Shown one piece after another: positions 56,403 through 57,281 of a stretch of 64,000 nt of DNA. Below the pieces are notes generated by a model that saw nothing but the letters and a program-made list of their open reading frames with translations, searched no databases and was not told the DNA's origin. Origin of the DNA: the human T2T-CHM13v2.0 reference genome, Homo sapiens; NCBI RefSeq assembly GCF_009914755.1, contig NC_060928.1; one strand, written 5' to 3'. A program made the position numbers and the translations under genes. The stretch's first letter is position 1. Each line of letters begins with the position of its first letter.

Positions 56403-56459
56403 AGAAGGAACAAGCTATAAATCGGGCTGGAATTGTTCAAGAGGATGTGCAGCCACCAG
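56403..56459 (+). CDS. SMIM20: SMIM20 coding exon 2 ([19 protein letters not shown]); start of phoenixin
   Basis: Pyrimidine tract tttttctcttatgtttctcag| acceptor and CAG|gtaaac donor; 57 nt, phase 1-1, continues the exon 1 frame. Confidence 0.97.
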
Positions 56460-57243
56460 GTAAACTGAAAAAAAAAAATCAAAACCAAATCTTATTTGTA
56501 CTACTGTGTTGTGCGGGTTTGTGTGTGTTTGCCTTGGCGTGGAGAGTGGGAAAATGCCTTTTAGCTTAGAGACAAGATTGTGATTTTGCTATTTATTTCT
56601 CAACAGTTGCCATTTATAGATGCCACCCAAGGCGTCATTCTAATATTTCACTCCAGAATACTTTTTGCACGTTTGCCAGGTTCCTCTTTTCCATTTTATA
56701 AGTGGGCATAAAAATGTTAACAAGTGCGTGATTCGATATGAGACGTGAATAGCTGTTTGGCAGACTTATTTACCAAGCACCTATTTAAACACTCCCCTCA
56801 TGGGAAAATAGTGTTTACTTGTTAGCTGTTTGAATTGATGTGGGGTTCTGCTTTGCACAAGGGCTAAAAAGCTCCCTTTATGGCTGAATGGTTAGTTCCT
56901 TTCAGAGGATCCAAGTTAGCCAGGAATGAGAGGTTTCTCATTTATTAACCAAAGCTCTTATAATCTGTGGCAACATTCTTTTTTATTTATTTATTTTTTA
57001 ACTAGGCCAGATGTCGGTCTTCCTGCTATGGGGTACAATTCCTGAGCCATTTAAAAGTCCCTTATGGCAGCCATGGCTTCCTGGCCATTTAATGCCAAGG
57101 TTCCGGCAGCCTGCTCACACCATCTCAAACTACACTGTAAATTGCACAGCTCAGTTCTGATGTCATTTTGTTTGTTTGGGGTGGAGGAAAGTGGAAGGAC
57201 ATTTAAAAATGAATCCTGTTTTTGTTCCTGTTTCTTTCCATAG

Positions 57244-57281
57244 GGTTAAAAGTGTGGTCTGATCCATTTGGCAGGAAATGA
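57244..57281 (+). CDS. SMIM20: SMIM20 last coding exon ([12 protein letters not shown]-stop)
   Basis: Acceptor tttgttcctgtttctttccatag|; TGA at 57279-57281; spliced CDS 109+57+38=204 nt = 67 aa + stop. Confidence 0.97.

What the first reader, a model, noticed from the sequence alone, without database searches (positions are those of the whole stretch)
56426..57281. Cryptic amidated neuropeptide (phoenixin) encoded in the C-terminus of a 67-aa membrane microprotein
Seen: splicing three small exons, none of which appears as a full ORF in the track, gives a 67-aa protein with one hydrophobic segment ([21 protein letters not shown]). After it come KK and R, then [23 protein letters not shown]-stop. 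Established: G followed by basic residues is the carboxypeptidase E/PAM amidation signal. The products match phoenixin-20 (from 56426) and phoenixin-14 ([16 protein letters not shown]2, from 56444); GPR173 is the proposed receptor. The same protein, SMIM20/MITRAC7, is a mitochondrial inner-membrane COX1 assembly factor. Inference: one microgene serves both complex IV assembly and peptide signalling. No classical cleavable signal peptide is evident, so the route to secretory amidation enzymes is unexplained. The system is known; the trafficking question is the open part.
Basis: partly seen in the sequence, partly recalled or inferred. Interest (0 to 1): 0.8.

Follow-up and report, generated by a model that had tools for sequence, protein, structure and literature searches.

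The report
SMIM20 gene: known phoenixin precursor
This is the well-described human SMIM20 gene, whose 67-residue membrane protein helps build mitochondrial complex IV and carries the phoenixin hormone sequence at its tail, and both that double role and the puzzle of how the tail reaches the secretory pathway are already in print.

Summary
Window parts 42405-42513, 56403-56459 and 57244-57281 join through two GT-AG, phase-1 introns into 204 nt, giving 67 aa plus TGA. Phoenixin-20 starts at 56426 and phoenixin-14 at 56444. F-G-R-K-stop ends at 57281.

Exon 1 alone hits Pfam PF15061 (E 1.5e-15). Four stored public proteins contain the identical 67 aa.

The interpretation (SMIM20/MITRAC7/phoenixin) agrees with the papers I read. 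So does the "open" part: PMC9004410 already calls the signal peptide unusual and the protein moonlighting, and PMC12069048 says the shedding mechanism is unknown.

- The amidation Gly is present in 32 of 34 amniotes. It is absent in 0 of 21 amphibians, 0 of 5 coelacanth/shark/ray/gar/sturgeon and 0 of 59 teleosts as G+basic. The 14-residue core is nearly invariant throughout.
- The cut before phoenixin-20 follows Arg in 118 of 119. The cut before phoenixin-14 never follows a basic residue (0 of 119).
- The GPR173 pairing is disputed by negative assays (PMC9004410).

Verdict: real, correct, already known, low interest.

The parts
42311..42404 (+). 5' UTR of SMIM20 (annotated transcript start to ATG). 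It lies in a CpG-rich promoter shared head-to-head with lncRNA LOC105374538.
   Evidence: Supplied gene table; no upstream ATG in 42311-42404, G at -3 of the start codon, GC 0.60-0.73 and CpG o/e 0.7-0.83 over 42000-42599.
42405..42513 (+). Coding part 1: residues 1-36 plus the first base of codon 37. It holds the short N-flank (net +2) and the single hydrophobic helix (residues 7/8-27, 42423-42485).
   Evidence: Pfam PF15061 E 1.5e-15. KD peak 1.8. AF2 helix 2-26 in a shrew orthologue.
42514..56402 (+). Intron 1 (13,889 nt), phase 1, GTGAGT...CAG.
   Evidence: Retention would stop after 38 aa.
56403..56459 (+). Coding part 2 (57 nt): the rest of K37, then K38 to P55, plus the first base of G56. 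It contains the K-K pair (42513+56403..56407), R44 (56423-56425), the start of phoenixin-20 (A45, 56426) and the start of phoenixin-14 (D51, 56444).
   Evidence: R at this position in 118 of 119 named orthologues.
56460..57243 (+). Intron 2 (784 nt), phase 1, GTAAAC...TAG. An A-rich run follows the donor.
   Evidence: The read-through frame stays open to give a 91-aa product that would lose the conserved W-S-D-P-F end.
57244..57281 (+). Coding part 3: the rest of G56 to F64 (end of both phoenixins, 57267-57269), G65-R66-K67 (57270-57278) and TGA (57279-57281).
   Evidence: Core columns Q53, P54, G56, K58, W60, D62, P63 and F64 are invariant in 43 of 43 aligned sequences.
57282..57902 (+). 3' UTR. 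ATTAAA at 57883 lies 19 nt before the annotated transcript end.
   Evidence: Supplied gene table..

Best explanation
The finding is the last two coding exons of human SMIM20. Together with exon 1 at 42405-42513 they encode a 67-residue single-pass membrane protein of family PF15061. I put this identity at 0.98 or higher. The confidence of 0.55 given for this entry applies to the whole inferred peptide route below.

Shown by others (read here as passages): the protein is MITRAC7, an inner-mitochondrial-membrane factor that joins late COX1 assembly intermediates and sets how much COX1 goes on into complex IV.

Read directly from the sequence: the tail contains the two published phoenixin peptides followed by Gly-Arg-Lys-stop.

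Inferred mechanism for the peptide:
- The N-flank is more positive (+2) than the C-flank (+1). The helix should therefore insert N-in/C-out in whichever membrane receives it.
- In mitochondria that puts the tail in the intermembrane space.
- In the ER, for the minority of molecules that go there as an uncleaved signal-anchor, the tail would face the lumen.
- A convertase could then cut after Arg44, which has a basic residue at P8. Carboxypeptidase E would remove Lys67 and Arg66, and PAM would convert Gly65 into the amide on Phe64.
- No C-terminal endoproteolysis is needed, because R-K are the last two residues.
- Phoenixin-14 cannot arise from a basic-site cut. It must come from secondary trimming or another protease.

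The amidation step is an amniote acquisition laid on a far older, nearly invariant tail.
For: Identity:
- 95.8 bits for a stored protein that contains the identical 67 aa.
- 51 and 502 hits. All named hits among those listed are 'small integral membrane protein 20', apart from a few rows named 'hypothetical protein' or 'unnamed protein product'.
- The structure of three exons with two phase-1 introns equals that reported for the family from choanoflagellates to human (PMC9004410).
- It is a single locus in its own genome.

Mitochondrial role:
- PMC7582755 and PMC8719881.
- The MitoAtlas preprint assigns SMIM20 as an inner-membrane TM protein and reports an AF3 SMIM20-COX14-MT-CO1 model with ipTM 0.69.
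- The FAM136A preprint lists SMIM20 as a putative intermembrane-space chaperone client.

Peptide:
- The printed phoenixin-20 amide sequence equals residues 45-64.
- P1 Arg is present in 118 of 119 orthologues.
- Gly+basic is kept in 32 of 34 named amniotes, which suggests selection once it was gained.
- Reviews report that the amidated peptide is active and the free-acid form is not in mammals (PMC7664650; PMC12069048).

Topology: flank charges are.
Against: - No tool here predicts signal peptides. Published SignalP 4.1, 5.0 and 6.0 runs find none, and localisation predictors conflict (PMC9004410).
- The helix is only moderately hydrophobic (KD 1.8, with G-G and P), and the flank charge difference is small.
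- ER insertion of SMIM20 has not been shown in anything I could read. A search for secretory-granule or convertase evidence returned nothing on target.
- The amidation Gly is absent from all 85 named non-amniote vertebrates as G+basic, while the core is invariant. Amidation therefore cannot explain the conservation.
- The phoenixin-14 cut has no basic P1 in 0 of 119.
- Human PNX-14 did not activate GPR173, GPR85 or GPR27 at up to 1e-4 M (PMC9004410 section 8).
- The primary papers on peptide isolation (Yosten 2013, Lyu 2013) and on MITRAC7 (Dennerlein 2015) are not held. The IMS orientation of the tail and the mass-spectrometric evidence are therefore second-hand or recalled.
Confidence: 0.55

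Rival explanations
1. Mitochondria only. The tail is conserved because it works in the intermembrane space, for example by contacting COX1 or COX14. 'Phoenixin' signals in tissue and serum would then largely reflect full-length SMIM20 or its breakdown fragments, not a regulated secreted amidated hormone. Knock-down phenotypes would reflect impaired complex IV.
For: - The 14-residue core has the lowest mean column entropy of the protein (0.44, against 0.69 for the TM helix). It stays invariant in lineages without an amidation signal.
- According to PMC9004410 the core also persists in sponges and a choanoflagellate that lack GPR173.
- The phoenixin-14 N-terminus is never at a basic site (0 of 119).
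- Assuming a shared C-terminus at F64, three of the six reported peptide lengths (42, 17, 14) start after non-basic residues. One of them starts inside the membrane helix.
- No modern predictor finds a signal peptide.
- The Nematostella precursor is broadly expressed, unlike other neuropeptide precursors (PMC11087051).
- The heart is reported as the peripheral organ with the highest level (PMC12069048 passage).
- One review concedes that the antibodies may bind MITRAC7 (PMC6032287).
- The tail is predicted to be unstructured when alone (pLDDT 64 and 53 in the last two blocks). That fits a segment that folds on a partner.
Against: - Reviews state that amidated peptides were isolated and that propeptide cleavage was demonstrated experimentally. 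I could not read the primary papers.
- Synthetic peptides have many reported activities, and these depend on the amide in mammals.
- Gly65 is retained in 32 of 34 amniotes, and Arg44 and the terminal basic residues are kept almost everywhere.
- A zebrafish 20-mer printed without an amide is reported active (PMC7156445).
Confidence: 0.3
2. Mitochondrial release. The tail is clipped from the inner-membrane protein by an intermembrane-space protease and leaves the cell by a non-classical route, as proposed for other mitochondria-derived peptides. It would be mostly un-amidated.
For: - This needs no ER targeting.
- It fits lineages without the Gly and the activity reported for a fish peptide printed without an amide.
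- It fits cut sites at non-basic residues.
Against: - No passage I read reports such release.
- It does not explain why amniotes keep G-R-K (32 of 34).
- It does not explain why the free-acid peptide is reported inactive in mammals.
- The comparison with mitochondria-derived peptides rests on recall.
Confidence: 0.1
3. Chance open frame, or a non-coding transcript wrongly annotated as coding.
For: None beyond the small size of the exons.
Against: - Pfam match at E 1.5e-15 for exon 1 alone.
- 119 named vertebrate orthologues with an invariant tail motif.
- Identical 67-aa product in four stored proteins.
- Canonical splice sites with conserved intron phases.
Confidence: 0.01

Closest known systems
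SMIM20 / MITRAC7 / C4orf52 (phoenixin precursor), Pfam PF15061 (DUF4538)
   Same: It is this gene. The Pfam match is full length, covering profile positions 1-57 over residues 2-58. The exon-intron plan is the same. The tail is identical to the printed phoenixin-20.
   Different: Nothing differs. Note that the Pfam model stops at K58, so it omits the most conserved motif (W-S-D-P-F) and the amidation signal.
NUCB2 / nesfatin-1
   Same: It is a precursor claimed to have a second, non-hormonal cellular function. PMC9004410 reports it together with phoenixin as anciently conserved, and the two are co-expressed in rat hypothalamus.
   Different: NUCB2 has a recognised signal peptide and is a large soluble Ca/DNA-binding protein. 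SMIM20 has only an N-terminal membrane helix and is 67 aa.
Other small single-pass MITRAC factors (COX14/C12ORF62, COA3/MITRAC12, SMIM4)
   Same: They are short inner-membrane proteins that chaperone newly made respiratory-chain core subunits.
   Different: None of these is reported, in the passages I read, to carry a peptide-hormone sequence or a Gly-basic C-terminus. No sequence comparison with them was made here.
Classical amidated neuropeptide precursors (for example pro-NPY)
   Same: They have a C-terminal Gly followed by basic residues, and a basic residue before the peptide. The CPE and PAM rules are established knowledge.
   Different: - Classical precursors have a cleavable signal peptide. 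Here only SignalP 3.0 finds one.
- In most families amidation is conserved across species (PMC9004410). Here it is confined to amniotes.

Membership tests
SMIM20 / PF15061 (DUF4538) | Match to the Pfam profile above the gathering score | tested here: met
   Exon 1 alone scores 57.1 bits against a cut-off of 27. Stored proteins that contain the identical 67 aa score 95.8 and 95.3 bits over the whole profile.
SMIM20 / PF15061 (DUF4538) | [quoted passage not shown] | tested here: met
   both introns split a codon after its first base (codons 37 and 56).
SMIM20 / PF15061 (DUF4538) | Single N-terminal membrane helix followed by a linker and a conserved tail ending in W-S-D-P-F | tested here: met
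   KD peak 1.8 at residues 9-27. AF2 helices 2-26 and 33-45 in an orthologue. W60, D62, P63 and F64 are invariant in 43 of 43.
SMIM20 / PF15061 (DUF4538) | Inner-mitochondrial-membrane location and association with COX1 intermediates | not testable with these tools
   Literature only. The primary paper is not held.
Amidated neuropeptide precursor | Cleavable N-terminal signal peptide | tested here: inconclusive
   No signal-peptide predictor is available here. The uncharged stretch is 20 residues long (8-27), longer than a typical cleaved h-region (established knowledge). Published runs: only SignalP 3.0 is positive, and 4.1, 5.0 and 6.0 are negative.
Amidated neuropeptide precursor | Basic residue(s) immediately before the mature peptide | tested here: met
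   This is met for phoenixin-20: P1 is Arg44 in the window and in 118 of 119 orthologues. It is NOT met for phoenixin-14: P1 is Glu50 in the window and is never basic (0 of 119: E 60, A 53, D 2, G 1, S 1, T 1, P 1).
Amidated neuropeptide precursor | Gly followed by basic residue(s) after the peptide, conserved among orthologues | tested here: inconclusive
   It is present in the window (G65-R66-K67) and in 32 of 34 named amniotes. It is absent in 0 of 21 amphibians, 0 of 1 coelacanth, 0 of 2 sharks/rays, 0 of 2 gar/sturgeon and 0 of 59 teleosts as G+basic. So it is met for the human gene but not as a family-wide trait.
Amidated neuropeptide precursor | Endogenous amidated peptide detected, and a cognate receptor activated | not testable with these tools
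   Detection is asserted in reviews, but the primary papers are not held. A receptor assay with GPR173, GPR85 and GPR27 was negative.

The most novel reading that the evidence does not exclude
The 'phoenixin' segment is first of all an ancient intermembrane-space motif of a complex IV assembly factor. It is unstructured alone and folds onto COX1 or COX14. Its hormone career would be a late exaptation in the amniote stem, made possible by one residue change at position 65 to Gly, which created a CPE/PAM substrate. From a Ser AGC or Ala GCC codon to the human GGC, a single base change would suffice. That is an inference, because orthologue codons were not examined. If this is so, much of the immunoassay and knock-down literature on phoenixin outside amniotes, and part of it within, measures mitochondrial SMIM20 biology.
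Probability: 0.3. Interest if true: 0.55.

Novelty: already known. Interest (0 to 1): 0.2.

Why it matters
Nothing new is found at this locus: the gene, the peptides, the mitochondrial role and the targeting puzzle are all published.

What still matters is practical. A large clinical ELISA literature treats serum phoenixin as a hormone (many such titles are listed). SMIM20 knock-downs are read as loss of the peptide (for example PMC7156445), although they also remove a complex IV assembly factor.

The tally made here shows two things. The amidation signal is confined to amniotes while the core is invariant. The phoenixin-14 start is never at a basic site. Together these sharpen the case for separation-of-function experiments.

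Tried and rejected
I used the library search that accepts 30 aa and then used returned orthologues as queries.
- Dennerlein 2015, Yosten 2013 and Lyu 2013 are not held. Peptide isolation, MS evidence and the IMS orientation of the tail therefore rest on reviews or recall.
- a divergent unnamed homologue used as query gave only 2 hits.
- the profile search found 502 hits, but only the best 120 are listed and all named ones are vertebrates. I could not test invertebrate orthologues myself and rely on PMC9004410 for them.
- no solved structure matches exon 1 or a full-length primate orthologue at E up to 1.
- the own genome shows only this gene's exons 1 and 2 (5 candidates scored) and no processed copy. 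The tool states that such counts are lower bounds.
- no Rfam family anywhere in the 64-kb window.
- no other convincing frame on either strand in 56300-57400.
- a search for papers linking phoenixin to convertases, secretory granules or antibody cross-reaction gave nothing on target among the 15 listed of 3,439.
- the enteroendocrine peptidomics paper only cites phoenixin in its reference list.
- Supplementary files of PMC9004410 (localisation predictions, assay curves) were not opened.

Full report
**1. The observation**

I read the three annotated coding parts and joined them by coordinate in a script. Parts 42405-42513, 56403-56459 and 57244-57281 give 204 nt, which is 67 codons plus TGA.
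- Both introns have canonical ends: GTGAGT...CAG and GTAAAC...TAG.
- Both introns are phase 1.
Residue 45, the first of phoenixin-20, starts at 56426. Residue 51, the first of phoenixin-14, starts at 56444. The stop ends at 57281.
- The hydrophobic segment is residues 7-27. The Kyte-Doolittle 19-residue mean peaks at 1.8, and residues 8-27 carry no charge.
- K37-K38 and R44 follow it, as do R28 and R32.

None of the exons makes a long frame on its own. Exon 1 runs into the intron as a 38-aa ATG frame. Exon 2 lies in a 64-aa stop-to-stop frame, and the coding frame of exon 3 is too short to be listed.

**2. Is it real?**

- Exon 1 alone (36 aa) matches Pfam PF15061/DUF4538 at E 1.5e-15, 57.1 bits against a cut-off of 27.
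- A library-wide HMMER search with the same 36 aa found 91 proteins at E <= 1e-3, of which 30 were at E <= 1e-10. Many of these are mis-spliced gene predictions.
- Searches seeded with returned orthologues found 51, 2 and 502 (best 120 listed) proteins. Apart from a few rows labelled 'hypothetical protein' or 'unnamed protein product', the listed rows that carry a name are 'small integral membrane protein 20'.
- Four stored proteins contain the window's 67-aa product exactly. Two of them score 95.8 and 95.3 bits over the full Pfam profile.
- Three of those four come from records only 985-1274 bases long. A continuous frame there must be spliced RNA, which supports both junctions. I had no RNA-seq data.
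- The own genome shows only this locus (lower bounds).
- There is no upstream ATG in the 5' UTR, and ATTAAA lies 19 nt before the annotated 3' end.

**3. What the literature says**

These papers were read as passages unless stated otherwise.
- PMC10781454 prints the phoenixin-20 amide. It equals residues 45-64.
- PMC7582755 and PMC8719881 describe MITRAC7 as a metazoan late-stage COX1 assembly factor. Its level gates COX1 entry into complex IV.
- A 2026 preprint (MitoAtlas) assigns SMIM20 as an inner-membrane TM protein and shows an AF3 SMIM20-COX14-MT-CO1 model with ipTM 0.69. Another preprint lists SMIM20 as a putative client of an intermembrane-space chaperone.
- PMC9004410 (passages; section 8 read whole) is the key paper. 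It reports that:
  - the precursor, with three exons and two phase-1 introns, is conserved to sponges and a choanoflagellate;
  - the signal peptide is 'unusual', found by SignalP 3.0 but not by 4.1, 5.0 or 6.0;
  - localisation predictors split between mitochondrial and secreted, and the authors call the protein moonlighting;
  - the amidation site is absent in most species;
  - PNX-14 did not activate GPR173, GPR85 or GPR27 at up to 1e-4 M.
- PMC12069048 states that the shedding mechanism is unknown.

**4.

I aligned the window's product with 42 orthologues.

| Region | Mean column entropy |
|---|---|
| N-flank | 1.46 |
| TM helix | 0.69 |
| Linker | 1.21 |
| Residues 45-50 | 1.02 |
| Phoenixin-14 region (51-64) | 0.44 |
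| Last three residues | 1.12 |

Q53, P54, G56, K58, W60, D62, P63 and F64 are invariant in 43 of 43. N43 and R44 are invariant too. K37 is basic in 39 of 43, and K38 in 24 of 43.

I then tallied 119 named full-length orthologues. I dropped five rows beforehand: P0133 and P0139 as second isoforms of species already counted, and P0135-P0137 as truncated without the motif. Twelve unnamed rows were kept apart.

| Group | Gly directly after the final Phe |
|---|---|
| Mammals | 14 of 14 |
| Birds | 5 of 5 |
| Turtles | 3 of 3 |
| Squamates | 10 of 12 (the exceptions have R and D) |
| Frogs | 0 of 17 |
| Caecilians | 0 of 3 |
| Salamander | 0 of 1 |
| Coelacanth | 0 of 1 |
| Sharks/rays | 0 of 2 |
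| Gar and sturgeon | 0 of 2 |
| Teleosts | 1 of 59 (that Gly is followed by Pro, not a basic residue) |

- Non-amniotes have S, A, N, Q or K (amphibians, sharks) or K (57 of 59 teleosts) at that position.
- Arg precedes the phoenixin-20 start in 118 of 119.
- The residue before the phoenixin-14 start is never basic: E 60, A 53, D 2, G 1, S 1, T 1, P 1.
- Reviews list peptide lengths of 42, 36, 26, 20, 17 and 14. If all share the C-terminus at F64, which is my assumption, the 36-, 26- and 20-mers start after R, K-K and R. The 42-, 17- and 14-mers start after F (inside the helix), I and E.

**5. Structure**

AlphaFold2 was run on a shrew orthologue with an 11-sequence alignment.
- It gives helices 2-26, 33-45 and 49-52, and a coil from residue 53 to the end.
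- Block pLDDT falls from 92 to 64 and 53. The mean is 75.5.
- The most conserved part is thus predicted to lack structure on its own. That is typical of a motif that binds a partner, and the model does not say which partner.
- No solved structure matches.

**6. How it most likely works**

Shown: the gene structure, the protein, family membership, and the presence of a Gly-Arg-Lys C-terminus.

Shown by others: the inner-membrane location and the COX1 chaperone role.

Inferred:
- The N-flank is +2 and the C-flank +1, so the positive-inside rule (established knowledge) favours N-in/C-out.
- That orientation puts the tail in the intermembrane space in mitochondria. This agrees with my recollection of Dennerlein 2015, which I could not read.
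- The same orientation would put the tail in the lumen if some molecules enter the ER as a type II signal-anchor. The tail would then be cut after Arg44, trimmed by carboxypeptidase E and amidated by PAM.
- I give this whole chain about 0.55.
- The main rival (0.3) is that the tail is conserved for its mitochondrial job and the hormone reading is overstated.
- A third option (0.1) is proteolytic release from mitochondria without amidation.

The conservation pattern shows that amidation cannot be the reason for the invariance of the core. However, retention of Gly in 32 of 34 amniotes argues that amidation matters once present. These data do not decide between the explanations.

**7. Comparison and novelty**

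This is SMIM20 itself, not a relative. It resembles classical amidated precursors in its Gly-basic end and its basic P1 for the 20-mer. It differs in lacking a recognised cleavable signal peptide, in the non-basic start of the 14-mer and in the lineage-restricted amidation site. PMC9004410 notes that most neuropeptide families keep amidation across species.

The restriction to 'some vertebrates' is already stated there, and PMC12069048 says 'mammals and avian species'. My tally only makes that statement finer.

Verdict: already known, interest 0.2.

Noticed in passing
window 42513 joined to 57244 (skipping 56403-56459): Exon 2 is 57 nt and lies between two phase-1 introns, so skipping it stays in frame. 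The result is a 48-aa protein that keeps the helix and the W-S-D-P-F-G-R-K end but loses residues 37-55, including R44. Predicted proteins of exactly this form exist in public data for a frog (P0133) and an unnamed record (P0038).
   Followed up: partly
window 56460-56569: The frame stays open through the start of intron 2. Intron retention would give a 91-aa protein whose tail replaces the conserved end of phoenixin-14. A similar read-through prediction is in the public library (P0009).
   Followed up: partly
window 41800-42600: SMIM20 (start 42311, + strand) and lncRNA LOC105374538 (end 42184, - strand) are head to head, 127 bp apart, inside a CpG-rich stretch (GC up to 0.73, CpG o/e 0.7-1.2). 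This looks like a bidirectional promoter.
   Followed up: no
proteins P0002-P0092: A large share of public predictions for this microgene are mis-spliced. Some are N-terminal extensions through the 5' UTR. Some read through into intron 1 and end in S-E. Several tails ending in K-S-V-V come from exon 3 read in the wrong frame (compare the frame 57161..57262). Databases of microproteins are noisy here.
   Followed up: partly
teleost orthologues: 17 of 59 teleost proteins end in Gly followed by Lys or Arg at the very C-terminus, for example tails ending in A-G-K. If the Lys directly after the conserved Phe were not cut, this would be a different potential amidation site a few residues downstream. 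It is not conserved: 42 of 59 lack it.
   Followed up: no
Pfam PF15061 against residues 2-58: The curated Pfam model ends at K58. It therefore leaves out the most conserved motif of the family and the C-terminal processing signal.
   Followed up: no
window 1-64000: No Rfam family reaches its gathering score anywhere in the window on either strand.
   Followed up: yes
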